DNA of 64,000 nucleotides. It comes from Escherichia phage T5_ev219. The position numbers were made by a program, and so were the translations under genes. Below are positions 16,243 through 47,751 of the stretch, in pieces. Numbering within the stretch: the first letter of the stretch is position 1; every line of letters starts with the position of its first letter. The notes under the pieces were generated by a model. It was not told the DNA's origin. It did not search any database and saw nothing but the letters and a program-made list of their open reading frames with translations. The stretch is taken from the sequence record NC_134263.1. One strand, 5' to 3'.

Positions 16243-16520
16243 TTTTTAATCTCCGTGATTATCTGTGTACGCATTACTTTAGCGGGTAATTTATTATTCC
16301 CAATTATTGCTTCTATATTATTTAATTTTTCTTTAAGAATATCTGAGCGTCTTTGTGCTAATTCAATATCTTGCTCTTGCTCTAGCAAACGGTGGTGTAA
16401 TCCATCATTAGTAATGAGCATACTTTCCATGTTTTTTCGTGCGTTTACAATCCCAATAACTCCACCAATCGCTACTAGCGTAGTAAGAATTAGTAACCCA
16501 ATAAGAATTTCTGTAATCAT
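16239..16520 (-). CDS. small membrane-anchored protein
   Basis: 93 aa, N-terminal TM. Confidence 0.45.
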   Translation of the reverse strand: MITEILIGLLILTTLVAIGGVIGIVNARKNMESMLITNDGLHHRLLEQEQDIELAQRRSDILKEKLNNIEAIIGNNKLPAKVMRTQIITEIKK

Positions 16521-17053
16521 TTATTTAATTCCTCTAAAGTAGGTAAGGGTTTTGTATGATCAAAAGTTTCTATAACAGCGTTAGACCCATGTAGTTCTAA
16601 ACGTAGTTCATTAGCTCTTTGAACCGCTAATTCTAGATCTAAGAAATCAAAATACCCACCATGTACTAACTTTTTGTATGAATCTACAACCCTTACTTCC
16701 CATTTTTGCTTTTGTTTATGCCAAAAGATTCCCAAATACCCTGATTTGCTCCTTGCTGTTCTATTTCTAGAATTTTCTTGGTTGTTAGATTCTCTAAGGT
16801 TAGCCCACCTATTATCACTCCGTATACGATTTACGTGGTCTATTACTTCGGGAATATAACCTTCCATATAGAGGAAGGCTAGTCGATGTGCTTTGTAACC
16901 TACTTTATCTACTCTTATCTCTATATACCCAGTCTTTCTTAGACAGCCAGCAATACTACCAGCTTTTTGATTACCTATACTTACTAATCTAATAAACTCG
17001 CCCGTTTCCGGGCGGTATTCCAATAATTCTTTTAATCTTTCTTGTGTTATCAT
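16517..17053 (-). CDS. HNH homing endonuclease with AP2-like DNA-binding domain (paralog 1)
   Basis: 178 aa; HRLAFLYMEGY...DHVNRIRSDNRWANLRE plus SGYLGIFWHKQKQKWEVRV; paralog of 23957..24493 and 47203..47751. Confidence 0.75.
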   Translation of the reverse strand: MITQERLKELLEYRPETGEFIRLVSIGNQKAGSIAGCLRKTGYIEIRVDKVGYKAHRLAFLYMEGYIPEVIDHVNRIRSDNRWANLRESNNQENSRNRTARSKSGYLGIFWHKQKQKWEVRVVDSYKKLVHGGYFDFLDLELAVQRANELRLELHGSNAVIETFDHTKPLPTLEELNK

Positions 17054-17343
17054 TTTTTCTTTAATTGCTTAACTTCACGCTCAAAGCTAGCTGCTCGGCG
17101 TTCTGCCACTGCTTGATGCTCCTTAGCAAAGCGTGCCTCTTGTTTTGCTAAGTTAAAGGCCATAGCGTTCTTGTTAAGAGAATCGTACATCTTTTTCATT
17201 GCTGGGATGGACATTTTCATCAGTTGCCCCTCAAATCCTTGCATGTCGAGGAGAATTGCTAATACATTGGCCATTTCAGTCTTGGTAAGGTTAGAGGCGT
17301 CGAAGTCTTTAGTCATGTTTTCCATTAGAATTTCCTCTCTCAT
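17050..17343 (-). CDS. hypothetical protein
   Basis: 97-aa ORF. Confidence 0.5.
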   Translation of the reverse strand: MREEILMENMTKDFDASNLTKTEMANVLAILLDMQGFEGQLMKMSIPAMKKMYDSLNKNAMAFNLAKQEARFAKEHQAVAERRAASFEREVKQLKKK

Positions 17344-17403
17344 TAATTTATGAACTTATTATACGGAATTTTAAGGCTTAAAGCAACTGAATTTTTTAAT
17401 TAC

Positions 17404-17835
17404 TTACCAATCGTTAACAACGCCGGAGAACTCAGAAGCAAAAACTTTTTCAAATTTCTCTGCAATTTCAGGATGATCTTTGCAGATCAGCTCAATACAG
17501 GCTTCTGGAGCCATTCCTTCATCTTCAGGATCACCATAGTATTTATCCCAAAGATCATCAGGAATGATATGCTCCGCCAAATCTTGGAAAGATATTAACT
17601 GATAACGTTCTGCTTCCTCGGGGATAAGGATCTCACAAAGATCTTTATCTATATCGCTACGATAATCCGCAATTAATAAGGCATTGCAAGCATGACATTC
17701 CCAGACCATCAAACGTTCAGAGATAGGATTAGACTTATCCTGAACGTAGGACTGAAACAGGGTTCGGAAAGTAGCTTTAACTTGTTCAAACTTATCTGCT
17801 GCTGCGAAAACTAGGGCTTTATCAACTTTGTTCAT
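17404..17835 (-). CDS. hypothetical acidic protein
   Basis: 143-aa ORF behind a family promoter. Confidence 0.55.
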   Translation of the reverse strand: MNKVDKALVFAAADKFEQVKATFRTLFQSYVQDKSNPISERLMVWECHACNALLIADYRSDIDKDLCEILIPEEAERYQLISFQDLAEHIIPDDLWDKYYGDPEDEGMAPEACIELICKDHPEIAEKFEKVFASEFSGVVNDW

Positions 17836-17865
17836 TTTTATTCCTTCTCATCAATTTATAAAGTA

Positions 17866-17894
17866 ATTATACAGAAACTTAGGCATTTTAGCAA
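17866..17894 (-). promoter_or_regulatory. sigma70-type promoter of the conserved T5-early family
   Basis: Minus-strand TTGCTA -35, 17-bp spacer, TATAAT -10, AT-rich upstream. Confidence 0.6.
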
Positions 17895-18002
17895 ATAAAA
17901 CTTTTAATTAAAATGCCTAGTCCTGTACCAATAGCAATACAAATGATTATAAGTATTGCTATCGCCTGTATGATTCGTTTAATAATAACCTCAGCTATAT
18001 AC

Positions 18003-23207: not shown

Positions 23208-23960
23208 TTATCCAACTAGTGGTTCTAGCTCTAAGTCACAGAAGTTATAAACTTCTAGTTTAAGGTTATTGATACCATCGAATTTATTAACTAATTCGTG
23301 AGTAATATATTTTGCAGGAATACCACTTTCAGATGGATGATCTGATTTAATAGTGAACTTCTGCTCAGCGGGTACTACATTTACTATCAAAGAGTCCATA
23401 TCTAAATGGTTTGTTTCTCTGAGTAGCTCTCCTTCATTGGGGAATCTAACATCTGTTATTACGGCGACGTCTGGGTCGTCTTTAGCGATGGATTGCTCCA
23501 GAATTACGAGCCAAATGCGTTCATGCACCAGCTGCCTTCCTAGCTCTGTCCCTACGAGCTGTAACATTTTTCTCGGAGAAATAAATAAACTATAAAGTCC
23601 ATCTTCTTTAATCTCTGAGATAAGTTGTTGAGGATTAAGATATTTTTCCTCAAAAATAGGCCAAACGTACGAGAAGTCTTCAAACTTATCGATACCGTAC
23701 TTAAACCACACATCTCTGGCTCGCTCCAATTGAGATTGTGTGACCATAAACCATTGGTCAATCTCTTTTCCCTTGCGCTCTCCTAGAAACTCTGGAGTTA
23801 CACCGAGGATTACGGATGCAAGTTCATAAACGGGCTTAGCAAAACTATAACGACGGGGTAAACACGTTGGATACGTATCATTACACCAATCGATAATTAA
23901 TTTTGCAACGGTATCTTTTCCTGCACCTGCTTCGCCATGCAGACCCACTAGTACACTCAT
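23208..23960 (-). CDS. dnk: deoxynucleoside monophosphate kinase
   Basis: 250 aa; N-terminal P-loop GEAGAGKDT. Confidence 0.65.
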   Translation of the reverse strand: MSVLVGLHGEAGAGKDTVAKLIIDWCNDTYPTCLPRRYSFAKPVYELASVILGVTPEFLGERKGKEIDQWFMVTQSQLERARDVWFKYGIDKFEDFSYVWPIFEEKYLNPQQLISEIKEDGLYSLFISPRKMLQLVGTELGRQLVHERIWLVILEQSIAKDDPDVAVITDVRFPNEGELLRETNHLDMDSLIVNVVPAEQKFTIKSDHPSESGIPAKYITHELVNKFDGINNLKLEVYNFCDLELEPLVG

Positions 23961-24493
23961 TTATTAAGTTCCTCTAAAGTTGGTAAAGATTTTGTAGAAT
24001 CAAAAGTTTCTATAACAGCATTTTCACCGTGCAATTGTAAACGAAGTTCATTGGCTCTTTTAACGGCGGATCCTAGATATAGGTAATCAAAGTGACCTCC
24101 GTATATATTATTACCCTTAGAATTAGCAACGTTTACTTCCCACTTCTGGTCACGTTTCTTCCAGCTAACTCCTAGATAACCAGATTTACTTCTGGCAGCT
24201 TTATTTCTCTGGTTTTCTTGGTTATTGGACTCTCTAAGATTTAGCCAACGATTGTCACCACCTACGCGGTTTATGTGATCCACCATCTCAGGAAAATAGC
24301 CCTCCATATAAAGGAATGCTAGCTGATGTGCTAGGTAAGGTTTTCCATCTACCTTTATTTGTATATACCCATCTTTCCTAAGTGTACCTGCAATATTACC
24401 CGCTTTTTGATTACCAACACTCACTAATCTAGTAAATAATCCAGTATCAGGGGTATATTCAAGTAATTCCTTTAATCTTTCTTGTGTCACCAC
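23957..24493 (-). CDS. HNH homing endonuclease with AP2-like domain (paralog 2)
   Basis: 178 aa; near-identical termini to 16517..17053. Confidence 0.75.
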   Translation of the reverse strand: MVTQERLKELLEYTPDTGLFTRLVSVGNQKAGNIAGTLRKDGYIQIKVDGKPYLAHQLAFLYMEGYFPEMVDHINRVGGDNRWLNLRESNNQENQRNKAARSKSGYLGVSWKKRDQKWEVNVANSKGNNIYGGHFDYLYLGSAVKRANELRLQLHGENAVIETFDSTKSLPTLEELNK

Positions 24494-25943: not shown

Positions 25944-26037
25944 CTAAAATTTTATTATAAAAATAGCCCAGTCGCAAAAGTGCAGGCTGGGCTTTGTCAT
26001 TATTTGCTTTTGCTAGTAAGTTGATTTAGTATCAATC

Positions 26038-26418
26038 TTATGTAATATTAGTTTCTCTGGCTTTGCGTAGTACCCCTGCATTTCTCCACAATTTGATGTC
26101 AGCAACTGTTTCTTTATATGGAGCAATGGTAGAACCAATTGGGCCAGCAACTAATAGTCCAAAGAACCCTACAATACGCATGTAGAACAAGCATTCTTTG
26201 GCTGTCATATTATTTACTGCTTTTTTCTGCTTTTCATCTTTAAACTTCTGTTCTTGATCATCAATACGTAGATACTTAACAAACCATTCAGCAGAGTATT
26301 CGTCCAAATGTCTAATAATAGCTATCGCATATACAGCACCGATTAAAAACCAAGTTGCAACAAGAATTAGTAATATAGTCATATTATCTCCAGTTAGGGC
26401 TAGCAGCCACCTCACCAC
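26038..26418 (-). CDS. membrane protein
   Basis: 126 aa, hydrophobic helices. Confidence 0.5.
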   Translation of the reverse strand: MVRWLLALTGDNMTILLILVATWFLIGAVYAIAIIRHLDEYSAEWFVKYLRIDDQEQKFKDEKQKKAVNNMTAKECLFYMRIVGFFGLLVAGPIGSTIAPYKETVADIKLWRNAGVLRKARETNIT

Positions 26419-26492
26419 TTACCGCACTAAGGGGCACGACTCCCTTATCCGTAACAGTTGCAGGTGACGCAACTCGGTCCTACGCGAGTTCT

Positions 26493-26777
26493 TTAGGTAT
26501 TCTGCATTTCAGCTTTAAATTTTTTCATATTACGAGTCTTTCTATAAAAGAAAAACACAGATGTTGGGCCTAGAAGAATATCCACAATAAATATCATAGA
26601 TCTAGCACATCTGAGTAATGTTTTATCATCAAGAGGAGGCAGATCTAACGGTCGAGTTTTATGTATAACGTATAATATTACATCTTTATTCTTAGAAATA
26701 TACAGATCATCAACCAAGCTGTAAATAGCTACTATAGATCCAATGACGAACCAAAGAGCAAATGGAGAGATAATCAT
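26493..26777 (-). CDS. small membrane protein
   Basis: 94 aa. Confidence 0.45.
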   Translation of the reverse strand: MIISPFALWFVIGSIVAIYSLVDDLYISKNKDVILYVIHKTRPLDLPPLDDKTLLRCARSMIFIVDILLGPTSVFFFYRKTRNMKKFKAEMQNT

Positions 26778-27112
26778 TTCAGATCCTTTTCATTAATTAG
26801 AATATTTGTAAACAGTGGAGTAAATCCTAGACTCATAGTAGGTCCAAACGTATTCATGGCTACCCACAATTGCATAGTGATCATCCCATCTTTAATCTCT
26901 GGATCTTTATATTCTTCGATACGTTTTTTGGCAAAGGCAACTACATCTGGGTTATTTTTATTTTTCTGGATATAGTCATGCCAAAACTGGGCATTCTCAC
27001 TACGTAGGAATGTTAAAATATCCTTAGTTGCTGGGATCTGCACTGTGCTATTAATATTTAGTCTTTTCACGTTCTTTTCCATGTTACTCTTCTCCTTCAA
27101 AGTCGCAATCAT
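26774..27112 (-). CDS. hypothetical protein
   Basis: 112-aa ORF. Confidence 0.5.
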   Translation of the reverse strand: MIATLKEKSNMEKNVKRLNINSTVQIPATKDILTFLRSENAQFWHDYIQKNKNNPDVVAFAKKRIEEYKDPEIKDGMITMQLWVAMNTFGPTMSLGFTPLFTNILINEKDLK

Positions 27113-27386
27113 AACGACAAGTAAAAGAATCAGAACTATTAGTACGTTGAGTGGTTATTTCACCGCGTTTGCTAATAGTAACGGCTGGAGTAGAGAAGTT
27201 TTTGTTAGTGTATATTTCTACTTTACCATTACGTTCCTTAACATCACGTACTTTACCATACTCGGTAATAATGCCGTTCTGTTGGACTTTAACATTACCA
27301 TTTTTCATAGAAACTTTGGTAGATGCCAGAGAACCGAAACTAACTGCGGAGATCATCAGTGCAATAATAAACTTATTCATCTTCAT
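27084..27386 (-). CDS. small secreted protein
   Basis: Track ORF trimmed to MKMNKF start, which overlaps the upstream stop; N-terminal signal-peptide-like segment. Confidence 0.45.
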   Translation of the reverse strand: MKMNKFIIALMISAVSFGSLASTKVSMKNGNVKVQQNGIITEYGKVRDVKERNGKVEIYTNKNFSTPAVTISKRGEITTQRTNSSDSFTCRYDCDFEGEE

Positions 27387-27654
27387 CCTCCCCACTACAA
27401 TCACGACATACATCATAATCGTTGAAAGAACGTTCGTGAGCTTCACCCCACCAAGAACAAGAATCGCAGAGGAACATTTCGGTTTTCTCAAGTGCTTGGC
27501 CTAAAAGATCATCAGCTTCCTCAGCAGTAATCTTCAATCCACATACATCTGCCACACGTTCTTTAATTAAGCGACCTGCCTCATGGTAAGACATACAGGT
27601 TCCAACAACACTATGCTCGACAACGTGAATAGCACAGTCTAGGCGATTTTTCAT
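27373..27654 (-). CDS. Cys-rich small protein (zinc-ribbon-like)
   Basis: 93 aa; CDSC...CRDC pairs. Confidence 0.5.
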   Translation of the reverse strand: MKNRLDCAIHVVEHSVVGTCMSYHEAGRLIKERVADVCGLKITAEEADDLLGQALEKTEMFLCDSCSWWGEAHERSFNDYDVCRDCSGEDEDE

Positions 27655-29315: not shown

Positions 29316-29409
29316 TTATGTTTTATTAGACTAAGTAAGTATTCTTTATACTCTATAGACCAATTAGCTTTTTTAAACTTTCCTGGACGCATAGTCTTAA
29401 TTCCTAAAT

Positions 29410-29486
29410 TTGGTACTCCGGGAGGGATTTAAACCCCCGATCTCTCGGTTATCAGCCGAGTGCTTTAGATCGCTAAGCTACCGAAG
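29410..29486 (-). tRNA. tRNA-Ile (GAT)
   Basis: Manual cloverleaf; anticodon loop CTGATAA; CCA encoded. Confidence 0.7.
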
Positions 29487-29502
29487 CATTAGAATATTTA
29501 CA

Positions 29503-29793
29503 TCATACACTGTCTAAATAAGAAGTATAATGGAATTTAGCTTCTCCAGTCTTATCTATTTCTACCTCAGTTCGTGGTACTTGACGAACTACACCATGAA
29601 TCATCTTATAGCGAATGCCTTTAGCTGGTTCATGATCTTTTGGAAATACCTGTTTAACCGTTACTACTTTATACTCTTCACGCGGTGTTAACACAACTAC
29701 TTGATCACCTTCTTTGATTTTCCAAGAAGATGGAAATTCATAGGTATATCTTTGACCACCAGTTTGGAATACTACAGAAAGATAACGCTTCAT
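29503..29793 (-). CDS. hypothetical protein
   Basis: 96-aa ORF between tRNA genes. Confidence 0.5.
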   Translation of the reverse strand: MKRYLSVVFQTGGQRYTYEFPSSWKIKEGDQVVVLTPREEYKVVTVKQVFPKDHEPAKGIRYKMIHGVVRQVPRTEVEIDKTGEAKFHYTSYLDSV

Positions 29794-29823
29794 TTGGTTT
29801 CCCTCTCATTAATTTATATAAAT

Positions 29824-29853
29824 ATTATAACAAGAAATAAGAGAGAAGGCAAA
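29824..29853 (-). promoter_or_regulatory. sigma70-type promoter of the conserved family
   Basis: TTGCCT, about 18 bp, TATAAT on minus strand. Confidence 0.5.
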
Positions 29854-29867
29854 TGAATTTTTAAATT

Positions 29868-29942
29868 TGGTGCTCCCACCAGGAATCGAACCCGGTTCAG
29901 ATGCTTACAAGGCAACTGCATCGCCAGCAATGCTTTAGGAGC
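29868..29942 (-). tRNA. tRNA-Thr (TGT)
   Basis: Manual cloverleaf; loop CTTGTAA. Confidence 0.65.
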
Positions 29943-29952
29943 GATAATCCCA

Positions 29953-30117
29953 TTATTTCAACGGGATTTCTTTTTCAATAACAGGAGACTTATCAGTCAT
30001 AACTGTCATTGCCATTTGTTGTAGAAATTCAAAGGTGAAGGCTACACGTTCTTCACCAATCTCTACTTCTACACGTTTCTTTTGTTTATCGATCTTGACT
30101 TTTAGGTTATCAGCCAT
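29953..30117 (-). CDS. small hypothetical protein
   Basis: 54-aa ORF below the track cutoff. Confidence 0.35.
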   Translation of the reverse strand: MADNLKVKIDKQKKRVEVEIGEERVAFTFEFLQQMAMTVMTDKSPVIEKEIPLK

Positions 30118-30361
30118 TAGAGAGTACAGTACTGGTAGTTGGCAATACTACAGATGAAGCAACAGTGTTTAAATGCTTTCTCCAGTCTAGGTTAAATTGT
30201 TTTCGAAACTCTTCATAAGGTTCTTCTGGATAAAAGCTAAAACCTCCTTTCTCGTCATTCAGGATAACAGAGCCGTCAGTTTGTTCGTATGCTCGGTATG
30301 TTTCTCCAATAACAATAATTCGTTTATCGGTACTTTTATTACGAAACTCAAAAACGTGCAT
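30110..30361 (-). CDS. hypothetical protein
   Basis: 83-aa ORF. Confidence 0.45.
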   Translation of the reverse strand: MHVFEFRNKSTDKRIIVIGETYRAYEQTDGSVILNDEKGGFSFYPEEPYEEFRKQFNLDWRKHLNTVASSVVLPTTSTVLSNG

Positions 30362-32669: not shown

Positions 32670-32672
32670 ATA

Positions 32673-33284: not shown

Positions 33285-33641
33285 TTAGTTTAACCGTAAA
33301 GTATTATCTACTTCACCATTAATTGTTCGGCATTCCTCTGGGATTGCCGGGGTGGCCTTGTATTCCCACCACTCAGCACCATCATATTCCCCACGTTCTA
33401 GCCAAGTTCCATCGGCAAACCATACATTACCATAAAGTAATTGTCCACCGTATCCAGAATCATATTCAAAGTCTAGGTTATTAAGAAAATCCTCAATATC
33501 TTCTTCTGCATAACCTAAAGGTAATACCCAAACTTTTTTATCCCCATAATACCCGAATTCTATTTTAATACACTTAACTTCAGAATTAGTATTTTTTAAG
33601 GCAAGTAACAGCTCTTCTTTAGCATTACGCATATTACGCAT
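33285..33641 (-). CDS. hypothetical protein
   Basis: Track ORF 33285..33728 trimmed to Met30 because the N-terminal extension runs into tRNA-Asp. Confidence 0.5.
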   Translation of the reverse strand: MRNMRNAKEELLLALKNTNSEVKCIKIEFGYYGDKKVWVLPLGYAEEDIEDFLNNLDFEYDSGYGGQLLYGNVWFADGTWLERGEYDGAEWWEYKATPAIPEECRTINGEVDNTLRLN

Positions 33642-33666
33642 AATATATTCCCATACTGGATTAATT

Positions 33667-33743
33667 TGGCGCGACCGATGGGATTTGAACCCACATTCTC
33701 TCCCGTGACAGGGGAGTACCATTACCAAGCCAGCCCCGGTCGC
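33667..33743 (-). tRNA. tRNA-Asp (GTC)
   Basis: Perfect acceptor; loop CTGTCAC. Confidence 0.75.
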
Positions 33744-33752
33744 ATAATTTAT

Positions 33753-33938
33753 TTACTCAGCTTTGAGTTTTTCAATAGCTGCATTAAGTTCTTTAAGAAA
33801 CTCTTTTCGTACATTAAGACGATTGAGACTTACTAGTATATCATGTTTAAGTTCTTCGATGTATTTCTTTTCAACTTCAATATTGTTGATAGTGCTATCA
33901 CGATGAACTTCTAACTGTGCAATTACATTCTTGGACAT
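33753..33938 (-). CDS. hypothetical coiled-coil protein
   Basis: 61-aa ORF. Confidence 0.4.
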   Translation of the reverse strand: MSKNVIAQLEVHRDSTINNIEVEKKYIEELKHDILVSLNRLNVRKEFLKELNAAIEKLKAE

Positions 33939-34040
33939 GCTTGTTTCCTCAGTTATTAATGAAAATGGTATCTGTGGCTGAATTCGATGTCAGCAATGAT
34001 AGCTGGTTGGCTACCGGTTTACTTAACTCTACACAGAATT

Positions 34041-34118
34041 TGGCGGTTCCTGCTGGATTCGAACCAGCAACCCTCAACTTAACAAGATGCCGCTCTAACC
34101 AATTAGAGCTAAGGAACC
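34041..34118 (-). tRNA. tRNA-Asn (GTT), tentative
   Basis: Perfect acceptor, D and T arms; weak anticodon stem; loop TTGTTAA. Confidence 0.55.
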
Positions 34119-34613
34119 ATATAAGTCAGAACTAGAGTTAATACGTTCTAGATATTTACTAAGATCCCTAGAATTTATACTAAACCACTCATGTTCTTTT
34201 AAATCTTTGAAATACTGGTGAATTAGTTTTTCACCTTTTCGTTTGTCAAACCAAAAAGACCAATGCTCTAACTTATAATCCCTATAAGGGGAATAAGTCT
34301 GATATTGAGCTAATCTCTCTTTTGGATTTTGACTCATACCTATTTTATACTGATTTTTCCATGCAGGATTACTAATACAGTATACAAAACCTTCAGAAAT
34401 AGGAAGTTTATTTTCCTGCTTAAACTTTATAAAGGAAAGTGCAGCAAGTTTTCTCGAATACATAGTATTTGTATTCTTTTTGGTATTACCATTGGTTCCT
34501 GAAAGATTTATATATTCTTCCATAAATCTCTGGATTAGTTCTGCGGTTATATAGAAGGGCTCATTAGTAACAACGCCTTTCTTTACCAAACTATCAAAAA
34601 CTTTTGTATGCAC
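34095..34613 (-). CDS. GIY-YIG-like domain protein
   Basis: 172 aa; GFVYCISNP...YKIGMSQNP..R pattern; last 7 codons and stop overlap the 5' end of tRNA-Asn. Confidence 0.55.
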   Translation of the reverse strand: MHTKVFDSLVKKGVVTNEPFYITAELIQRFMEEYINLSGTNGNTKKNTNTMYSRKLAALSFIKFKQENKLPISEGFVYCISNPAWKNQYKIGMSQNPKERLAQYQTYSPYRDYKLEHWSFWFDKRKGEKLIHQYFKDLKEHEWFSINSRDLSKYLERINSSSDLYGSLALIG

Positions 34614-34633
34614 TACTTCTTTCCTTTAGTAAT

Positions 34634-34709
34634 TTGGACGACCGCATGAGATTTGAACTCACATAAAAAGGATTTGCAATCCTTCGCCTAAGCCATTCAG
34701 CCAACGGTC
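34634..34709 (-). tRNA. tRNA-Cys (GCA)
   Basis: Loop TGCAAAT. Confidence 0.65.
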
Positions 34710-34897
34710 GATTTATCTTGTTTTTCGAGATCTTCAAATTCTAAATCATTGAAGTTCCCTAGAGTACGGGAGTAGAACCCGTCTCCTGCGTCATAGCCTG
34801 ATTTGCCACAATCACACATTTTAAATTCACGAAGATGTGTGAAAATATGCTCAGAACCACAACACTTAAATCTAACTAATCGTTTCATTAGTTTCAT
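34697..34897 (-). CDS. small zinc-ribbon-like protein
   Basis: 66 aa; CCGSEH...CDCG; 3' end overlaps tRNA-Cys 5' end. Confidence 0.45.
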   Translation of the reverse strand: MKLMKRLVRFKCCGSEHIFTHLREFKMCDCGKSGYDAGDGFYSRTLGNFNDLEFEDLEKQDKSTVG

Positions 34898-34946
34898 TAG
34901 CTTCTCCAGTTCAATTTATATAATTATTATATAGAACTTTTGGAAA

Positions 34947-35231
34947 CTAAGCAACTACATTTTTTAAGAATTTGATGTCTTTCTTCTTCTTATATTTCCA
35001 CGTTAATGGATTCTGTCGATTGTGAACGCTTGAGATCTTCGTCTCGTCAAAGTTCTTCAATATCATGTAATCACAAGATAATTGTTCTAATGGAATGTGA
35101 TCACCGTCAAAAGCATATACATAAGGCTGTTGACTAGCACGATAATGATAGACTTTGTTAATTCTACGTTTCAGCGACTTATCAGCGCAGTAAATAAAGA
35201 AGTTTTCAGGATGCATCAGCATCTCCTTCAA
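34947..35231 (-). CDS. hypothetical protein
   Basis: 94-aa ORF. Confidence 0.45.
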   Translation of the reverse strand: MKEMLMHPENFFIYCADKSLKRRINKVYHYRASQQPYVYAFDGDHIPLEQLSCDYMILKNFDETKISSVHNRQNPLTWKYKKKKDIKFLKNVVA

Positions 35232-35233
35232 TT

Positions 35234-35308
35234 TGGTGCACCCTGTTCGTATCGAACGAACCTCTCAAGCTCTTCAGGCAAGCGCTAATCCATCTCAGCT
35301 AAAGGTGC
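35234..35308 (-). tRNA. tRNA-Phe (GAA), tentative
   Basis: Good acceptor and T arm; loop CTGAAGA; partial anticodon stem. Confidence 0.55.
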
Positions 35309-35315
35309 AAATTTT

Positions 35316-35391
35316 GGCAAACCTACTAGGACTCGAACCTAGACCGTACGGTTTTGGAGACCGACATGCTGTCCAGTAACACTCTAGGAAT
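35316..35391 (-). tRNA. tRNA-like, Trp (CCA) anticodon arm but unpaired acceptor stem (possible pseudogene)
   Basis: Good D, anticodon and T arms and 3' CCA; 5' and 3' acceptor strands not complementary. Confidence 0.35.
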
Positions 35392-35399
35392 GCAGAAAT

Positions 35400-35476
35400 T
35401 GGCGTCCTGTGCGGGGATCGAACCCGCAAATCCTACCTTGAAAGGGTAGTGACTTTACCAGTTTGTCTAACAGGAC
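35400..35476 (-). tRNA. tRNA-Glu (TTC)
   Basis: Perfect acceptor and anticodon stems; loop CTTTCAA. Confidence 0.7.
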
Positions 35477-35483
35477 TTAAATT

Positions 35484-35574
35484 TGGTGTTGGATGATGGA
35501 GTCGAACCACCCGAGACCCTTCCGAGTCGGCAGATTTACAGTCTGCTTCGCTACCTCTACGATACTAATCCAAC
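35484..35574 (-). tRNA. tRNA-Tyr (GTA), class II
   Basis: 91 nt; perfect acceptor; anticodon stem GCAGA/TCTGC; loop CTGTAAA. Confidence 0.7.
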
Positions 35575-35702
35575 ATATTTAAAAGTATTCAAATACTAGT
35601 TTAAACACTTTTAAATATGTTTCCGAATTAGATAACTATTATACCAAGTTTTAAGGCACTGAGCAAGTCAAATTTTAAAGAACTTGCTCAGTGCTGTATT
35701 AG

Positions 35703-35978
35703 TTAGTCGAACTTAGGAGTGACAGTTAAGGAGAACGGAAGTTCGAAAACTTCTTCGCCCTCATTACTAACGGTAACTACACGACCTTTAAGTTCAGACA
35801 TTAAAATATCAATATCAGCTTTTGCATCTGGAGCCATGCCAGCTTCAATACATTTAGCTTTAACTTCCGGTAAAAGCTCTACGTTATAGAGATAGAGCCA
35901 CTCAATCTCACCTTCCCAGTCTTCCCAGGATTTGCAGATTGCACTTTCAATACCAGTTGCTACAACACGATTTTGCAT
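35703..35978 (-). CDS. hypothetical protein
   Basis: 91-aa ORF behind a family promoter. Confidence 0.5.
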   Translation of the reverse strand: MQNRVVATGIESAICKSWEDWEGEIEWLYLYNVELLPEVKAKCIEAGMAPDAKADIDILMSELKGRVVTVSNEGEEVFELPFSLTVTPKFD

Positions 35979-36068
35979 TAATTAACTCCTTCATCAATTT
36001 ATATAACTATTATACCAGAAATTTAAAGTAAAAGGCAAGTACATTTTTAAAAATTCTGTTTGGAGGAG

Positions 36069-36275
36069 CTAAACTCCAGATTTTTCGGCCAAGTCTAGAC
36101 TAATAAGAGTTATAGCCATAATTGCTGCACCGTGTTCTTTTTCTCCGGTGTTTTTAGCAGAGTCTATAATATCCTTAATCTGTTCGTAATAACTTTTTAC
36201 TTCTTGTTCAATGCCTGCCTCGGCTATCATGCCTTTAGCCATGAATCGTTGCATGGTAATTTCAGGATTAGCCAT
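36069..36275 (-). CDS. hypothetical protein
   Basis: 68-aa ORF. Confidence 0.45.
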   Translation of the reverse strand: MANPEITMQRFMAKGMIAEAGIEQEVKSYYEQIKDIIDSAKNTGEKEHGAAIMAITLISLDLAEKSGV

Positions 36276-36450
36276 GTTGTTTCTCCAGTTTCATTTTTAA
36301 TAGTTTACAGATGAAATCAACGTCTTCATCTGTGCCTAAGTCTCTATCCTCAAGGGTCGCCTTGAAGTTTTTCGTCAATTCCATGAGGATGATTTCCCTA
36401 GAACGACGTGTTGGCGGAGGTGGATGTCTATACATCTTATTTCCTTAATT

Positions 36451-36527
36451 TGGTAGGGGTGGTGGGATTCGAACCCACAAAACCTGAATTTTAAGTCCAG
36501 TACCTATGCCAATTCGATTACACCCCC
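36451..36527 (-). tRNA. tRNA with TAA anticodon (Leu codon UUA) but short variable loop
   Basis: 77 nt; good acceptor, anticodon and T arms; D-loop AATTGGCATA shared with 31792..31868. Confidence 0.55.
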
Positions 36528-36628
36528 GTGTAATCAGTTTATTAGTTGATACATATTATAGCCTAAAGAAAACCCTACTACTAATCCTACTAACCAACCA
36601 ATATAATAATCTTTTAATTTCACGGGTG

Positions 36629-36814
36629 TCAACCTCGTTCAATATCTAGAGAAATACCACAGGTAGGATTAATGCCTGTGCCTTTGCACGTCGGACAAAC
36701 CCAGATATTACAGAATGTATCCCCTGCTTCTGCATCAGAACTTTCTCCAACTCCTAGACAGTCAGGACAGGCACATTCTTCTAGCTCTTGCTTGAGTTCT
36801 TGAAACTTAGACAT
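36629..36814 (-). CDS. small zinc-ribbon protein
   Basis: 61 aa; CACPDC...CPTCKG. Confidence 0.5.
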   Translation of the reverse strand: MSKFQELKQELEECACPDCLGVGESSDAEAGDTFCNIWVCPTCKGTGINPTCGISLDIERG

Positions 36815-36823
36815 ATAGTTTCC

Positions 36824-37012
36824 TTATTCAATTACTTTTGAGGCTTCAAGGGAGTCGATATAGTGTACGTTTTCTACCATAATCATATAATCTGCCACTT
36901 TATCCATAGCCTGAGCTTCAGAGGTAGCCCTGGCTAACCTATATCCTTTTTTATATTCATCCGGGTATTCCCTATCTGGAATAAACACAACATAAACTAG
37001 GTATAGTTCCAC
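36824..37012 (-). CDS. hypothetical protein
   Basis: 62-aa ORF. Confidence 0.4.
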   Translation of the reverse strand: MELYLVYVVFIPDREYPDEYKKGYRLARATSEAQAMDKVADYMIMVENVHYIDSLEASKVIE

Positions 37013-37033
37013 TTGTAACCCCTCTAATTAAAC

Positions 37034-37111
37034 TGGTGGCTCCCCGAGGATTCGAACCTACGTACCTTCCGGTTATGAGCCGGGTGCTCATACCATATGA
37101 GCTTGAGAACC
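37034..37111 (-). tRNA. tRNA with CAT anticodon, E. coli fMet-like anticodon arm
   Basis: Anticodon arm CCGG-CTCATAA-CCGG; D stem GCTC/GAGC; weak T stem. Confidence 0.5.
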
Positions 37112-37117
37112 AGAATT

Positions 37118-37206
37118 TGGCGGAAGAAGTGGGAATCGAACCCACAAGGCTATATTTCAAACCGACAGATTAGCAATCTGCTGCAATACCGTTATGCTAT
37201 TCTTCC
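37118..37206 (-). tRNA. tRNA-Ser (GCT), class II
   Basis: 89 nt; perfect acceptor; loop TTGCTAA. Confidence 0.65.
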
Positions 37207-39687: not shown

Positions 39688-39735
39688 TTAAATACAGAAA
39701 AGCCCTGCGCTCTCCAGGGAACGCAGGGCTTACTT
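39688..39735 (-). terminator. rho-independent terminator downstream of SPFH gene
   Basis: 8-bp stem gccctgcg/cgcagggc then U-run on minus strand. Confidence 0.65.
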
Positions 39736-40811: not shown

Positions 40812-41313
40812 TTTAAGTATTTTTAAGAACTCTCGTAAAAACTCTTAAAAATACAGACGATACCGGGAGAGTCATAAGTCTCACTCATTAAGTATTTCAA
40901 GACAAAATACAGTAACGTCTATTATTTTCCAGTTTAAGTCAGGGTGACTTAGTGGTTATGTCCTGCGGTATATTGAGGACTCGGTTAGGCTTGGGGTCAT
41001 GACTTCCCGCCTTTTGCTGCTACTCAACAGGAGTTATCGCGAATTACCTGTGCTATTGTGCACCATTAGTGACATCTCTCATGTCAGCATTTCCCACTTT
41101 GTGGATAGCTTGAAAAACTACTCCGATATGGAGAAAGAACTTCACTATCCTAGAATACCTTCTAAAGTTCTTCTTTAGCCTGGACATAGTTAAATCGTAA
41201 TAAAACTATTCAGCAGACTGGTTGGTTAGTCTGGAACCAACTACCGCGTGGTTTAGGCAGTGCGCAACTAACCTCGGAAGCTTTTACGTTAAAAGCATCA
41301 GTTATCCAGTTCT

Positions 41314-41385
41314 TACCGACCGTAGGATTCGAACCTACATCTTCCACCAGTTACGGCTTGGTAATACCAATTATACTAGGACGGC
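41314..41385 (-). tRNA. tRNA-like element (no encoded CCA; possible pseudogene)
   Basis: T arm GTAGG-TTCGAAT-CCTAC; acceptor with one mismatch; non-canonical anticodon loop. Confidence 0.3.
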
Positions 41386-41645
41386 AGTGTTACTACATAA
41401 GTGATTTCCACACCCCACTATTTATAAATTAGAGAAGAGTTTAGGGGAGAGGTTTCAGACGCCCCATTTTACACGTTCTAGCCACTAACCGGGATTGCCG
41501 CCCCCTGTGTACTAGTTTTCCAACTAACCCACCGACTCTATTCAATGCGCTCCGGTTGGGATTCTGCACTCAGCGTAATCGGCTCGCTGTTCTCTAATTT
41601 ATGAATATATTATACAGAATTTATAGGCATTTAGCAAATAAATTT

Positions 41646-45495: not shown

Positions 45496-45711
45496 TTACT
45501 TGCCCAGCAGTTTAAGGATATTTTCCATAATAGTTTGGGCAGATTTTTCACTCTTGTTGGTTTCAGCCAACTTTAAAGCGAGTTCTTCCTGCTGTTTCTG
45601 AATATCCGCAGCAATTTTTTGATCAGCCTCAATACGAGCTTGAAGCTCATCAGTGATAATGGTAAAGGAAGCAACGATTTCAGTAACGGAACGTGGTTTC
45701 TTAGAGAACAT
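45496..45711 (-). CDS. hypothetical coiled-coil protein
   Basis: 71-aa ORF. Confidence 0.45.
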   Translation of the reverse strand: MFSKKPRSVTEIVASFTIITDELQARIEADQKIAADIQKQQEELALKLAETNKSEKSAQTIMENILKLLGK

Positions 45712-45775
45712 AAAAAATATCCTTGATTAGTTAGAGAATCAGTAGATTGTAGGGGCTCTCGCCCCTATTTATCTA

Positions 45776-46291
45776 TTACTTCGCTTTACGCTTGCGAGCT
45801 GGTTTAGCAGATTTACGAGCAGAATCACCCGTGAACTTAATACCTACACCGTAACACAGAGCACGAACATTATCTTTACTATACTCTACGCCAAAGATAT
45901 TTGGCTTAACAGAACCAAACTGTCCACGAGTATCACGCAATACATCTGCTGTTGGTTTACGCTTCTGGTTAACTGCCTTCTCATAGTCTTTCATAGACAT
46001 ACCATTACGAGAGAACAATTCAGCCCCAGCGTTGAAGCTCAGAGAAACTGGGACAGATTTGTGGCCATAACCCTGTACATAGGTCACAAGGCGGGCTACA
46101 GAACGAGTAGCATTCTTAGCCTTCGGCTTTTGACGAATCGGAGCCGGACGATTCAGTGCCTGTGCAGCTTGAGCATCAGTAGGGTGCTTGCGCAGGTGGC
46201 GTTCCAGACGAGCTTTGCGGTTAGCCTCAGTCTGCGGGAAAGTTTTAACTGTAGTAGCTGCTTGAGTTTTTGCGTTTTTCTGCTTAGCCAT
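45776..46291 (-). CDS. hypothetical basic protein
   Basis: 171 aa, Lys/Arg/Ala-rich. Confidence 0.55.
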   Translation of the reverse strand: MAKQKNAKTQAATTVKTFPQTEANRKARLERHLRKHPTDAQAAQALNRPAPIRQKPKAKNATRSVARLVTYVQGYGHKSVPVSLSFNAGAELFSRNGMSMKDYEKAVNQKRKPTADVLRDTRGQFGSVKPNIFGVEYSKDNVRALCYGVGIKFTGDSARKSAKPARKRKAK

Positions 46292-46374
46292 TATTTGTTT
46301 TCCTTTTTGTTTATCAATTTATGAAGTATATTATACGAGAATTTGAAGCGTTTAGCAAATGAATTTTTTAAAAA

Positions 46375-46653
46375 TTATCTACCAACCATCTTAGCTTGTT
46401 CGGCATCTGAGACATATTGATACGCCCCTTTATTATACGCTGGAGCAGTACACATTTTCTTACGCTCAATCTCTTCTTGAGCTTTTCTTTCGCGTTCAGC
46501 TAATTCTTCGTCCAGGTAAACTAAACGTTGTTCTGGGGGAGGTGGAAGACGTGTTTCTGGCTCACCAATATTAGCCTTTCTTATTTGACGAGGTGATTGT
46601 GCACGTTTTCTCAATGGTTTAAATCCTAATGAATTTGAGTTATAAATTCGCAT
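46375..46653 (-). CDS. hypothetical protein
   Basis: 92-aa ORF. Confidence 0.5.
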   Translation of the reverse strand: MRIYNSNSLGFKPLRKRAQSPRQIRKANIGEPETRLPPPPEQRLVYLDEELAERERKAQEEIERKKMCTAPAYNKGAYQYVSDAEQAKMVGR

Positions 46654-46729
46654 AAAGCCCTCCTCACTTTCAATACGAATATTATACTAAATTAGAGGGC
46701 TTTAAGCAAGAAAATTTTTAATTTATTTA

Positions 46730-47206
46730 TCACATCTCAGCCATTTCAGCTTCAGTAATAACTGTGTTACACAGTGCATCTACAGCTTCATTACCACTAA
46801 TACCAGAATGTCCTTTAACCTTAATAAAGGTAGGATTAGTATTATGAAAGTTGATATACTGCTGTGTTAATTTAAATGCTTCCTGCCAAAGTTCTAGATT
46901 AAGAGGAACTTCACCATCTGCTTTCTTCCAGCCTTTCCTTTGCCAAGAAAACATCCAACTTTCCATACCATTTTTGCAATAAGCAGAATCAGTATAGATA
47001 GCAATTGGTCTATTATCTTTTTTAACGGACCAACGTAGAGCTTCTACAATAGCTGTGAGTTCCATCTCATTATTTGTAGTTTTAGGATTATAACCAGATT
47101 TAGAACCTAAACGATCGTCGTTATCATCATAGACAATAAAACCCCAAGCACCTGGACCTGGATTAGATTTACAAGCACCATCTGTGTAAATGTGGAAAAC
47201 GCTCAC
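46730..47206 (-). CDS. rnhA: ribonuclease HI
   Basis: 158 aa; IYTDGACKSNPGPGAWG, NNEMEL, IYTDSAYC, KVKGHSG motifs. Confidence 0.8.
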   Translation of the reverse strand: MSVFHIYTDGACKSNPGPGAWGFIVYDDNDDRLGSKSGYNPKTTNNEMELTAIVEALRWSVKKDNRPIAIYTDSAYCKNGMESWMFSWQRKGWKKADGEVPLNLELWQEAFKLTQQYINFHNTNPTFIKVKGHSGISGNEAVDALCNTVITEAEMAEM

Positions 47207-47751
47207 TTATTAAGTTCCTCTATTGGTGGGTAATAGTTGGTATAGAAATCTTCTATAACTGCTTCGCTACCATGAAGTGTTTTTCTTAGTTTATTAGCCT
47301 TTATGACCGCACTTTCTAGGTCTAAGTAGTCAAAAACACCCCCGTAAATATTTTTACCATTATTATCAATCACCTGTACTTGCCATTTCTGTAGTTGTTT
47401 GTTCCAGTGTACACCTAGATATCCAGATTTACTCGATGTGGTACAATTTCTGTTATTAGACTGGCTTGTAGCTTCTCTTAGATTTATCCACCTATTATCT
47501 GACCTAATTCTATTTTTGTGGTCTATTAAATCAGGTATTGATCCTGTCATATATAGAAAGGCTAACCTATGCGCTAAATAATCTATTTTATCTATCTTAA
47601 TAGTTATATATCCGTCTTTTCTTAGGTATCCAGCTGGCGAACCTGCTTTTCCTCCCCTACCACGACTTACCTTATTAGTAAATATACCAGTATCTGGATC
47701 ATAGATTAGTAGTTCTTTTAATCTTTCTTGGCTAGGTAACTTTTTACTCAT
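47203..47751 (-). CDS. HNH homing endonuclease with AP2-like domain (paralog 3)
   Basis: 182 aa; shares ERLKELL...YLAHRLAFLYM...DH.NRIRSDNRW.NLRE...SGYLGV and C-terminal EELNK with the other two. Confidence 0.75.
   Translation of the reverse strand: MSKKLPSQERLKELLIYDPDTGIFTNKVSRGRGGKAGSPAGYLRKDGYITIKIDKIDYLAHRLAFLYMTGSIPDLIDHKNRIRSDNRWINLREATSQSNNRNCTTSSKSGYLGVHWNKQLQKWQVQVIDNNGKNIYGGVFDYLDLESAVIKANKLRKTLHGSEAVIEDFYTNYYPPIEELNK

What the first reader, a model, noticed from the sequence alone, without database searches (positions are those of the whole stretch)
16517..47751. Six homing-endonuclease-like genes, including three paralogous HNH-AP2 copies
Three ~180-aa HNH-AP2 proteins (16517, 23957, 47203) share long identical stretches at both termini but diverge in the middle, consistent with recent duplication and target-site divergence. 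An unrelated HNH (5740) and two GIY-YIG-like genes (11519, 34095) add to the load. Their positions next to conserved genes (dNMP kinase, RNase H, tRNAs) fit free-standing homing endonucleases.
Basis: partly seen in the sequence, partly recalled or inferred. Interest (0 to 1): 0.5.

Follow-up and report, generated by a model that had tools for sequence, protein, structure and literature searches.

The report
Homing endonuclease genes in T5-like phage
The window is part of a T5-like phage genome carrying six small selfish nuclease genes that are present in some relatives and absent from others; this is a well-known feature of this phage group, so the finding is real but ordinary.

Summary
All six ORFs exist at the stated coordinates. 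Three (16517, 23957, 47203) are paralogous HNH_3 + AP2 proteins of 178-182 aa. One (5740) is a more distant HNH_3 protein. Two (11519, 34095) carry the T5orf172/MUG113 domain, a GIY-YIG subfamily. The window is a Tequintavirus (T5-like) genome.

All six genes are present or absent at fixed sites across about 330-470 matching phage records. Empty sites are the large majority: 82%, 99% and 92% for the three paralogs. The free-standing homing-endonuclease reading is therefore supported.

"Recent duplication" is not supported.
- The paralogs share only 63-72% nucleotide identity, and dS is 1.35-3.4.
- They are as far from each other as from T5 hegE (F-TflV).
- Each has 97-100% identical orthologs at the same site in other phages.
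- They are old, site-specific lineages acquired separately.

Three details are added here.
- Each paralog sits exactly at a gene junction.
- Each ends in GAGGAAYTWAATAA(A/G)TGA. I infer this supplies a Shine-Dalgarno sequence and an overlapping start codon for the downstream gene (T5.030 homologue, dnk, rnh).
- The first 42 nt of dnk are recoded in occupied alleles: 26% divergence against 2-4% elsewhere, with one amino-acid change. This is a target-immunity signature.

Homing endonuclease gene (HEG) mosaicism in T5-like phages is already published. Nuclease activity is untested.

The parts
16517..17053 (-). HE16517: 178-aa HNH_3 + AP2 free-standing homing endonuclease gene of the F-TflV (T5 hegE)-like subfamily. 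It lies between the T5.032 and T5.030 homologues.
   Evidence: Pfam HNH_3 E 9.5e-15. PHROG 99 E 1e-63. 62% aa to T5 hegE. Occupied in 60/336 records, and T5 itself lacks it. Junctions.
23957..24493 (-). HE23957: 178-aa HNH_3 + AP2 homing endonuclease gene with a GTG start. It is inserted exactly between the Shine-Dalgarno sequence and the ATG of dnk (dNMP kinase).
   Evidence: Pfam E 7.8e-11. Occupied in 3/447 flank-matched records. 100% identical copies in slur09 and several contigs, 99.8% in BB1. Junction.
47203..47751 (-). HE47203: 182-aa HNH_3 + AP2 homing endonuclease gene immediately upstream of rnh (RNase H). Its stop overlaps the GTG start of rnh.
   Evidence: Pfam E 8.3e-14. Occupied in 34/438 records. 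98% identical in NBSal005 and phiLLS. Junction.
5740..6258 (-). HNH5740: 172-aa HNH_3 protein in the terminal-repeat (pre-early) region. It is the positional counterpart of T5 hegG (P-TflVII).
   Evidence: Pfam HNH_3 E 3.3e-12. 56% aa to T5 hegG over the full length. This allele is present in 29/433 records. T5 hegG is dispensable, toxic in E. coli and found in fewer than 15% of Demerecviridae (bioRxiv 10.64898/2026.04.02.716235).
11519..11875 (-). G11519: 118-aa stand-alone T5orf172/MUG113 (GIY-YIG subfamily) domain protein with no recognisable DNA-binding domain. It is a putative homing endonuclease, annotated P-TflXVII-like in DT571/2.
   Evidence: MUG113 E 5.4e-12 and T5orf172 E 3.5e-8. 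PHROG 18411 'homing endonuclease' E 2.8e-49. Orthologues are also 118 aa. Occupied in 30/435 records.
34095..34613 (-). G34095: 172-aa protein with a C-terminal T5orf172/MUG113 domain. It is the orthologue of T5.069 and lies between tRNA-Cys and tRNA-Asn. Its last 24 nt (34095-34118) are the 5' part of tRNA-Asn.
   Evidence: MUG113 E 5.5e-16 and T5orf172 E 2.5e-12. 98.8% aa to T5.069. tRNA coordinates. Occupied in 76/472 records, and VSe12 lacks it.
16517..16534 (-). 3' end module of HE16517: GAGGAATTAAATAAATGA. It contains an SD-like GAGGA, a 9-nt spacer and an ATGA overlap. The TGA is the HE stop and the ATG is the start of the T5.030 homologue.
   Evidence: Direct reading. The Glu codon GAG is fixed in 10/10 family members that carry the tail, against 18% GAG elsewhere in these genes.
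23957..23974 (-). 3' end module of HE23957: GAGGAACTTAATAAATGA, with an ATGA overlap onto the dnk start codon.
47203..47220 (-). 3' end module of HE47203: GAGGAACTTAATAAGTGA, with a GTGA overlap. The rnh start is GTG here and ATG in empty alleles.
23919..23960 (-). The first 42 nt of dnk, recoded in HE-occupied alleles. This is the inferred recognition or cleavage region of HE23957 in empty alleles.
   Evidence: 11/42 differences from each of four empty-site genomes, which are identical to one another here. The rest of dnk differs by 1.7-4.1%. Fisher p is 3e-6 to 4e-9, with one amino-acid change.
47744..48127 (-). 127-aa ORF of unknown function (phrog_26840). It accompanies the HE at the rnh locus in every occupied allele examined and may be co-transferred cargo.
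   Evidence: The empty allele K15 carries an unrelated 93-aa ORF, and T5 has none.

Best explanation
The window is the left 64 kb of a T5-like (Tequintavirus) phage genome. It carries six free-standing homing endonuclease genes (HEGs).

The three paralogues belong to the F-TflV (T5 hegE)-like subfamily of HNH_3 + AP2 enzymes. I infer the following mechanism. In a mixed infection with a relative that lacks the gene, the enzyme binds through its AP2 domain and an N-terminal module. It nicks or cuts near the start codon of the target gene (T5.030 homologue, dnk or rnh). Recombinational repair from the HEG-carrying genome then copies the HEG and short flanks into the empty site. The carrier genome is protected by substitutions in the recognition sequence.

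Each gene sits in an operon without evident signals of its own. It takes over the upstream translational signals. With its conserved last codons (LEELNK, nucleotides GAGGAAYTWAATAARTGA) it provides a Shine-Dalgarno sequence and an ATGA/GTGA overlap that keep the downstream essential gene translated.

The three copies are old, separately acquired lineages, not recent duplicates. HNH5740 is a variant of hegG. The two T5orf172 genes are GIY-YIG-type HEG candidates. One is embedded between tRNA genes, so that tRNA processing would cut its mRNA.

Shown here: domain content, polymorphism, exact junctions, recoding of the dnk 5' end, and age of the paralogues. Inferred: nuclease activity, position of the cut, homing, and the role of the 3' end as a ribosome-binding site.
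For: - **Phage identity:** the best matches are Tequintavirus genomes (VSe12 95.7%).
- **Domains:**. The family profile hits I-HmuI (E 3.3e-6) and the WRI1 AP2 domain (E 9e-9). The catalytic D72-H73...N85...N94 residues are invariant among the paralogues.
- **Presence/absence at fixed sites:** all six genes.
- **Exact insertion at gene junctions:**
- **Purifying selection:** dN/dS is 0.09-0.20.
- **Separate old lineages:** nucleotide identity is 63-72% and dS is 1.35-3.4. Orthologues in other phages are 97-100% identical. The family clusters by insertion site over six sites, namely T5.030, dnk, rnh, trx, primase/helicase and the T5 hegE site.
- **Target protection:** the first 42 nt of dnk are 26% divergent against 1.7-4.1% for the rest, p 3e-6 to 4e-9. 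Four empty alleles are identical there.
- **Recent transfer:** HE23957 differs from BB1 at 1/537 positions. The nearest flank mismatches are about 65-80 nt away. Divergence reaches 14-18 differences per 100 nt from about 250 nt upstream.
- **3' module:** GAGGA plus spacer plus an overlapping start is present in 10/10 tail-bearing members at five different sites (six site lineages). The first Glu codon is always the rare GAG.
- **Literature:** HEGs are the main source of differences among T5-like genomes (PMC10644984). HNH+AP2 is a known HEG family, and T5orf172 is a GIY-YIG subfamily abundant in T5-like phages (PMC10448857).
Against: - No nuclease activity, cut site or homing has been measured for any member of the F-TflV-like subfamily that I could find. 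The name F-TflV comes only from the T5 GenBank annotation.
- The recoding signature is strong only at dnk. At rnh and T5.030 the changes are confined to the first two or three codons and are partly forced by the ATGA overlap.
- G11519 has no DNA-binding domain, so site-specific cleavage by it alone is doubtful.
- Occupancy counts include duplicate GenBank/RefSeq records and depend on megablast coverage thresholds.
- The Shine-Dalgarno role of the tail is inferred from sequence only. T5 hegE lacks the tail.
Confidence: 0.85

Rival explanations
1. The three HNH-AP2 genes arose by recent duplication within this genome and then diverged to new targets.
For: Three paralogues share architecture, length and conserved N- and C-terminal motifs in one genome.
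Against: - Nucleotide identity is 63-72% and dS is 1.35-3.4.
- The paralogues are as distant from each other as from T5 hegE.
- Each has 97-100% identical orthologues at the same site in other phages, which carry different combinations of the copies. VSe12 has the 16517 copy only, and BB1 has the 23957 copy but not the 47203 one.
- The tree groups sequences by site, not by genome.
Confidence: 0.03
2. The genes are domesticated phage nucleases that are no longer mobile. They would serve the phage in host DNA damage, exclusion of co-infecting relatives or DNA processing.
For: - T5 hegG, the counterpart of HNH5740, is toxic in E. coli and compacts the nucleoid (bioRxiv 10.64898/2026.04.02.716235).
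- dN/dS of 0.09-0.20 shows that the proteins are maintained.
- T4 SegB-type enzymes mediate marker exclusion (PMC2330249).
Against: - The genes are absent from 82-99% of related genomes at each site.
- hegG is dispensable and does not degrade bulk DNA.
- A near-identical HE sits in diverged flanks, and the target is recoded. Both point to ongoing mobility.
- Exclusion of relatives is the same molecular act as homing, so this is only partly a rival.
Confidence: 0.1
3. The HNH-AP2 enzymes are the nickases that make the site-specific single-strand interruptions typical of T5-like virion DNA. The dnk copy would lie close to one of T5's major nicks.
For: - T5's annotated major nick at 22336/7 lies 182 nt inside dnk.
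- The motif GGAGAGCGCA occurs at the homologous place in the window and at a second place homologous to a T5 nick.
- The structurally characterised relative I-HmuI (matched) is, from my own knowledge, a strand-specific nickase.
Against: - T5 itself has the nick but lacks an HE at dnk.
- The nick motif is conserved whether or not the HE is present.
- Nicks occur in all T5-like phages, whereas each HE is in a minority.
- The recoded region is at nt 1-42 of dnk, not at nt 180.
Confidence: 0.02

Closest known systems
T5 hegE / F-TflV, and the T5 heg gene set hegA-hegH (F-TflI to P-TflVIII; Akulenko et al. 2004 for F-TflI, II and IV, cited in PMC10644984 and PMC2330249)
   Same: - The three paralogues are 61-65% identical to hegE over the full length, with the same N-terminal module, HNH_3 core and AP2 domain.
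- They are free-standing genes embedded in early operons.
- HNH5740 occupies the hegG site (56% aa). G34095 is the T5.069 orthologue (98.8% aa).
   Different: - They occupy three sites that are empty in T5 (T5.030/032 junction, dnk, rnh). The sites of T5 hegA, C, D, E, F and H are empty here.
- hegE lacks the EELNK/GAGGA-ATGA 3' module.
- I found no published biochemistry for F-TflV itself.
HNH-AP2 homing endonuclease family (Magnani et al. 2004, as cited in PMC10448857) and the IPA-HNH HEGs of ICP1-like phages
   Same: N-terminal HNH nuclease plus C-terminal AP2 DNA-binding domain. The genes are variable between related phages and lie next to essential genes.
   Different: The window proteins match canonical Pfam HNH_3 strongly. 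The IPA-HNH proteins are too divergent for that model (PMC10448857). The AP2 domain here is detectable only with a family profile or by fold.
I-HmuI (PDB 1u3e), the intron-encoded HNH homing endonuclease of Bacillus phage SPO1
   Same: The family profile matches residues 25-116 of I-HmuI, covering the N-terminal beta module and the HNH core (E 3.3e-6).
   Different: I-HmuI is intron-encoded, and the profile match does not extend into its C-terminal part. The window genes are free-standing and carry an AP2 domain.
T4 free-standing HEGs (seg and mob genes, e.g. SegB in the tRNA cluster, PMC2330249)
   Same: - Intergenic insertion next to conserved genes, with presence/absence between relatives.
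- A target in the neighbouring gene of the HEG-less phage.
- An HEG inside a tRNA cluster whose mRNA is cut by tRNA processing. G34095 overlaps tRNA-Asn by 24 nt.
   Different: The nuclease families and phage group differ. T4 enzymes are mostly canonical GIY-YIG, whereas here they are HNH-AP2 and T5orf172.
T5orf172 HEGs (PMC10448857)
   Same: G11519 and G34095 match T5orf172/MUG113 above cut-off. G34095 is the T5.069 orthologue. They are variable among T5-like genomes.
   Different: Most T5orf172 HEGs carry CapR-like zinc-finger DNA-binding repeats. G11519 has no extra domain, and G34095 has an uncharacterised 70-aa N-terminal region.

Membership tests
HNH / His-Me finger nucleases (Pfam HNH_3) | Match to the HNH_3 model above its gathering score, with the catalytic His and the Asn residues conserved | tested here: met
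   41.9-54.4 bits against a cut-off of 24.8 for all four HNH genes. D72, H73, N75, N85 and N94 are invariant in the three paralogues. H73, N75 and N85 are invariant across 79 homologues.
HNH / His-Me finger nucleases (Pfam HNH_3) | Relationship to a structurally characterised HNH homing endonuclease | tested here: met
   The family profile hits I-HmuI 1u3e at E 3.3e-6. Foldseek gives I-PpoI with prob 0.69, which is weak.
AP2/ERF DNA-binding domain | Match to Pfam AP2 above its gathering score on the single sequence | tested here: not met
   14.5-19.1 bits against a cut-off of 33.3.
AP2/ERF DNA-binding domain | Profile-level sequence similarity and the fold (three-stranded sheet packed on a helix) | tested here: met
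   The profile hits the WRI1 AP2 domain at E 9e-9 and TEM1 at E 3.6e-4. Homologues carry precomputed PF00847 hits. The model has strands at 109-112, 117-123 and 129-135 plus a helix at 137-158, with pLDDT 93.8. Foldseek matches AtERF1 with prob 1.00 and TM 0.74 normalised to target.
Free-standing homing endonuclease genes | The gene is present in some and absent from other closely related genomes at the same site, with exact junctions | tested here: met
   occupancy 0.7-18%; junction alignments.
Free-standing homing endonuclease genes | Sequence polymorphism at the presumed target next to the insertion that distinguishes occupied from empty alleles | tested here: met
   In dnk nt 1-42 there are 11 differences, against 1.7-4.1% elsewhere in the gene, p 3e-6 to 4e-9. 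At rnh and T5.030 only the first 2-3 codons differ, so the result is clear for one of the three sites.
Free-standing homing endonuclease genes | Site-specific cleavage or nicking of the empty allele, and preferential inheritance in mixed infection | not testable with these tools
   This needs enzyme assays and phage crosses.
F-TflV (T5 hegE)-like subfamily | Full-length similarity to T5 hegE with the same domain order | tested here: met
   61-65% identity over 165-171 aa, E 1e-73 to 5e-77.
GIY-YIG superfamily, T5orf172 subfamily | Match to T5orf172/MUG113 above the gathering score | tested here: met
   G11519 scores 46.5 and 34.3 bits. G34095 scores 59.3 and 47.6 bits. The cut-offs are 22.3 and 20.
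GIY-YIG superfamily, T5orf172 subfamily | Match to the canonical Pfam GIY-YIG catalytic domain | tested here: not met
   Only G34095 matches, at E 0.087 and 13.6 bits against a cut-off of 22.6. The link to GIY-YIG rests on the literature (PMC10448857).

The most novel reading that the evidence does not exclude
The F-TflV-like HEGs of T5-like phages behave as plug-in cassettes for gene starts.
- They insert exactly between a host gene's ribosome-binding site and its start codon.
- They use the captured site for their own translation.
- They carry in their last codons (LEELNK, GAGGAAYTWAATAARTGA) a portable Shine-Dalgarno sequence plus stop/start overlap. This restores translation of whichever essential gene lies downstream.

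This design would explain how one subfamily colonised at least six different gene starts (T5.030, dnk, rnh, trx, primase/helicase, T5.050). New sites may be chosen because their first codons resemble the old target: empty dnk and T5 rnh both begin ATGTCAGTWTT.
Probability: 0.45. Interest if true: 0.4.

Novelty: already known. Interest (0 to 1): 0.22.

Why it matters
It matters mainly for annotation and for comparative genomics of T5-like phages, which are used in biocontrol and therapy. The HEGs account for much of the gene-content difference between otherwise collinear genomes, and they mark likely recombination boundaries.

The added details give concrete substrates for the first biochemical test of an F-TflV-type HNH-AP2 enzyme. 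These are the exact start-codon insertion, a conserved 3' end that looks like a built-in ribosome-binding site for the downstream gene, and a sharply recoded 42-nt stretch of dnk. None of this changes the picture of homing endonucleases in phages.

Tried and rejected
- **Recent duplication or gene conversion between the paralogues.** Rejected. Nucleotide identity is 63-72%. The longest shared exact runs are 16-21 nt. dS is at or near saturation.
- **Further HE-like genes or fragments in the window.** tblastn with 14 HE proteins (the six from the window, six T5 heg proteins plus T5.069, and the NR01 endonuclease) found only the six genes. A Pfam scan of ten other ORFs found no nuclease domain. 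Families not represented in the query set could have been missed.
- **G11519 as a truncated pseudogene.** Rejected. Orthologues in DT571/2 and OSYSP are also 118 aa. The short PHROG match reflects a longer family profile.
- **A link between HE23957 and the T5 major nick inside dnk.** Rejected. The nick motif is 180 nt away and is conserved with or without the HE.
- **NCBIfam.** No hits.
- **PADLOC.** Only a generic 'homing endonuclease' model and a candidate family, PDC-S57, which gives no support for a defence-system role.
- **Promoter/terminator scan.** The number of promoter-like sites equals the shuffled expectation, so it does not show whether the HEGs have their own promoters. One scan call failed on the size limit.
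- **Foldseek against PDB.** It gave only weak E-values (0.008 or higher) because the domains are small. The AP2 assignment rests mainly on the profile search.

Full report
**What the window is**

The region matches Tequintavirus (T5-like, Demerecviridae) genomes along its length. The best hit is Salmonella phage VSe12, with 95.7% identity over 96% of a 13-kb probe. Gene order follows T5: dmp, A1, A2, the terminal-repeat genes, the lysis genes, dnk, a 23-gene tRNA cluster, rnh, thy, frd and nrd. No database record was near-identical over the segments probed, so this is a distinct mosaic member of the group.

**Check of the observation**

- All six ORFs are present at the stated coordinates on the minus strand.
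- The three paralogues are 178, 178 and 182 aa, and 71% and 63% identical to the first.
- Each paralogue matches Pfam HNH_3 well above its cut-off and AP2 below cut-off.
- I tested the AP2 assignment separately, and three results support it.
  - A profile of 79 family members hits the AP2 domains of WRI1 (E 9e-9) and TEM1 (E 3.6e-4). It also hits the HNH homing endonuclease I-HmuI (E 3.3e-6).
  - Many homologues carry a precomputed AP2 hit.
  - An AlphaFold model (pLDDT 93.8) has a three-stranded sheet and long helix at residues 109-158. Foldseek matches this to AtERF1 with probability 1.00 and TM 0.74 normalised to target.
- The 5740 gene is also HNH_3 and falls in the same PHROG 99. It gives BLASTP E 2e-7 to HE16517, so it is distant rather than unrelated.
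- The 11519 and 34095 genes match T5orf172/MUG113, not the canonical GIY-YIG model. T5orf172 is treated in the literature as a GIY-YIG subfamily that is abundant in T5-like phages (PMC10448857).
- The statement that the termini are identical and the middle divergent is only loosely true.
  - The longest exact DNA runs shared by any pair are 16-21 nt.
  - At the protein level the HNH core and the C-terminal tail are the best conserved parts. The AP2 sheet, which should contact DNA, is the least conserved.

**Are they mobile?**

For each gene I searched the phage collection with the gene plus 600-nt flanks. I counted records in which one place covers at least 80% of the query. In the remaining records the matched stretch is shorter than the query (for example 1,202 against 1,737 bases at dnk), so the gene is absent.

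| Gene | Occupied / matching records |
|---|---|
| 16517 | 60 / 336 |
| 23957 | 3 / 447 |
| 47203 | 34 / 438 |
| 5740 | 29 / 433 |
| 11519 | 30 / 435 |
| 34095 | 76 / 472 |

- T5 itself is empty at all three paralogue sites.
- Some sites hold other inserts.
  - At the T5.032/T5.030 junction T5 carries a 54-aa membrane ORF where the HE sits here.
  - NR01 carries a zinc-finger T5orf172 endonuclease a few hundred bases from the dnk site.
- The counts include GenBank/RefSeq duplicates and are approximate, but empty alleles clearly predominate.

**Age and origin of the paralogues**

- Codon-aligned nucleotide identity is 63-72%.
- Nei-Gojobori dS is 1.35-3.4 and dN/dS is 0.09-0.20. The proteins are under purifying selection and the split is old.
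- The paralogues are as far from each other as from T5 hegE, annotated F-TflV (61-65% aa).
- Each has a near-identical orthologue at the same site elsewhere.
  - HE23957 is 537/537 identical to the slur09 copy and 99.8% identical to BB1.
  - The HE16517 locus is 97.5% identical in phiAPCEc03.
  - The HE47203 locus is 98.2% identical in NBSal005.
- I fetched 15 family members from six insertion sites: T5.030, dnk, rnh, thioredoxin, primase/helicase and the T5 hegE site. Sequences group by site, not by genome. The exception is rnh, which hosts two lineages only 61% identical.
- Recent duplication in this genome is therefore not supported. Separate acquisition of established site-specific lineages is.

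**Anatomy of the insertions**

- *dnk.* The empty allele reads ...AATAGGAAAGATTA ATG TCA GTA.... The occupied allele reads ...AATAGGAAAGATTAAT GTG GTG ACA ... GAG GAA CTT AAT AAA TGA GTG TAC..., with dnk reading ATG AGT GTA in the ATGA overlap. The 537-nt ORF thus sits exactly between the dnk ribosome-binding site and the dnk ATG.
- *T5.030 site.* The HE start overlaps the stop of the T5.032 homologue (ATGA), and the HE stop overlaps the start of the T5.030 homologue.
- *rnh.* The HE and an upstream 127-aa ORF lie between the rnh promoter and rnh. The start codon of rnh is GTG instead of ATG, within a GTGA overlap.
- *Shared 3' end.* All three paralogues end in GAGGAAYTWAATAA(A/G)TGA.
  - The same GAGGA, spacer and overlapping start is found in all ten tail-bearing family members examined. 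These lie at five different sites (six site lineages, because rnh hosts two).
  - The first Glu codon is always GAG, although GAG makes up only 18% of Glu codons elsewhere in these genes.
  - I infer a nucleotide-level constraint. The tail doubles as the Shine-Dalgarno sequence for the downstream gene, and the HE uses the signals it displaced.
  - The second codon of each downstream gene is recoded to start with A, which creates the TGA stop (TCA to AGT/AGC for Ser, TTG to ATT).
  - T5 hegE lacks this tail.

**Target-site signature**

- In the first 42 nt of dnk the occupied alleles (window, BB1) differ from each of four empty alleles at 11 positions, with one amino-acid change.
- The four empty alleles are identical to one another there.
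- The remaining 708 nt compared differ by only 1.7-4.1% (Fisher p 3e-6 to 4e-9).
- H8 carries a 91%-identical HE and also differs from the empty alleles at 11 positions, six of them different from the window's.
- This is the pattern expected if the enzyme recognises the start of dnk in empty genomes and carriers are protected.
- At rnh and T5.030 the differences are confined to the first two or three codons and are partly explained by the overlap, so the inference is weaker there.
- Between the window and BB1 the HE has one mismatch. The nearest flank mismatches are about 65-80 nt away. Divergence rises to 14-18 differences per 100 nt from about 250 nt upstream. This is compatible with a recent transfer and a short co-conversion tract.

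**The other three genes**

- *HNH5740.* It occupies the hegG site in the pre-early region and is 56% identical to T5 hegG. [quoted passage not shown]
- *G34095.* It is the T5.069 orthologue (98.8% aa). Its last 24 nt are the 5' part of tRNA-Asn. tRNA processing would therefore cut the mRNA before its stop codon, the arrangement discussed for T4 SegB and the T5 tRNA-region endonucleases (PMC2330249).
- *G11519.* It is a bare 118-aa T5orf172 domain, the same length in its orthologues, and is annotated as putative endonuclease P-TflXVII-like in DT571/2. Without a DNA-binding domain its status as an autonomous homing enzyme is uncertain.

**Comparison with what is known, and verdict**

- T5's GenBank record already lists hegA-hegH and further putative Tfl endonucleases.
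- The BF23 genome paper states that homing endonuclease genes contribute most to the differences among T5-like genomes (PMC10644984).
- The HNH+AP2 architecture and the T5orf172 HEGs have been described (PMC10448857).
- The genes in this window have annotated, near-identical counterparts in public phage genomes.

The finding is therefore real, correctly classified in outline, wrong about recent duplication, and already known in kind. The start-codon plug-in design with a built-in ribosome-binding tail, and the recoded dnk 5' end, are the only points I did not find stated in the papers I read. They are inferences from sequence and need the experiments listed.

Noticed in passing
window 23774-23783 (-) and 39706-39715 (-): GGAGAGCGCA occurs exactly twice in the window. 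One copy is inside dnk and the other is inside the bidirectional terminator hairpin (39700-39731). Both positions are homologous to two of T5's annotated major single-strand interruptions (T5 22336/7 and 39746/7). The nick motif appears conserved regardless of whether the HE is present.
   Followed up: partly
window 47744-48127 (-): A 127-aa ORF of unknown function (phrog_26840) accompanies the HE at the rnh locus in all four occupied alleles examined (window, NBSal005, NR01, phiLLS). This holds even though two different HE lineages are involved. The empty allele of Kenya-K15 has an unrelated 93-aa ORF (phrog_5321), and T5 has neither.
   Followed up: partly
window 16512-17053; L005 (T5) 15823-15987: The T5.032/T5.030 junction exists in at least four forms among relatives. 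These are empty with a 22-nt spacer, a 54-aa membrane ORF (T5.031), the HE, and another insert of about 400 bp. The junction is a hot spot for small insertions.
   Followed up: partly
L004 (NR01) 2445-3143: NR01 carries a 232-aa endonuclease with CxxC zinc-finger repeats and a T5orf172 domain. It lies between the two spanin genes a few hundred bases from the dnk insertion site. vB_Sen_I1 shows an extra insert of similar size at the same locus.
   Followed up: no
window 41313-41386 (-): ARAGORN calls a tRNA-Ser with anticodon ACT here. The homologous stretch is 'tRNA-OTHER' (pseudo) in VSe12 and lies inside the stable 'RNAX' of T5. It is probably a tRNA-like RNA rather than a decoding tRNA.
   Followed up: no
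window 26000-27500, 29400-37200, 50742-50849: The sites occupied in T5 by hegE, hegD, hegC, hegA and hegH are empty in the window (no tblastn hit). T5 and this phage share only the hegG-site and T5.069-site nuclease genes. Otherwise they carry non-overlapping sets.
   Followed up: partly
window 23958-23960 and 47204-47206; L005 22508-22518 and 46878-46888: The empty-allele starts of dnk (ATGTCAGTATT) and of T5 rnh (ATGTCAGTTTT) share 10 of 11 nt. The two sites are used by HE lineages that are 62% identical. This may be chance (both proteins start M-S-V), or it may hint at how the family moved between sites.
   Followed up: no
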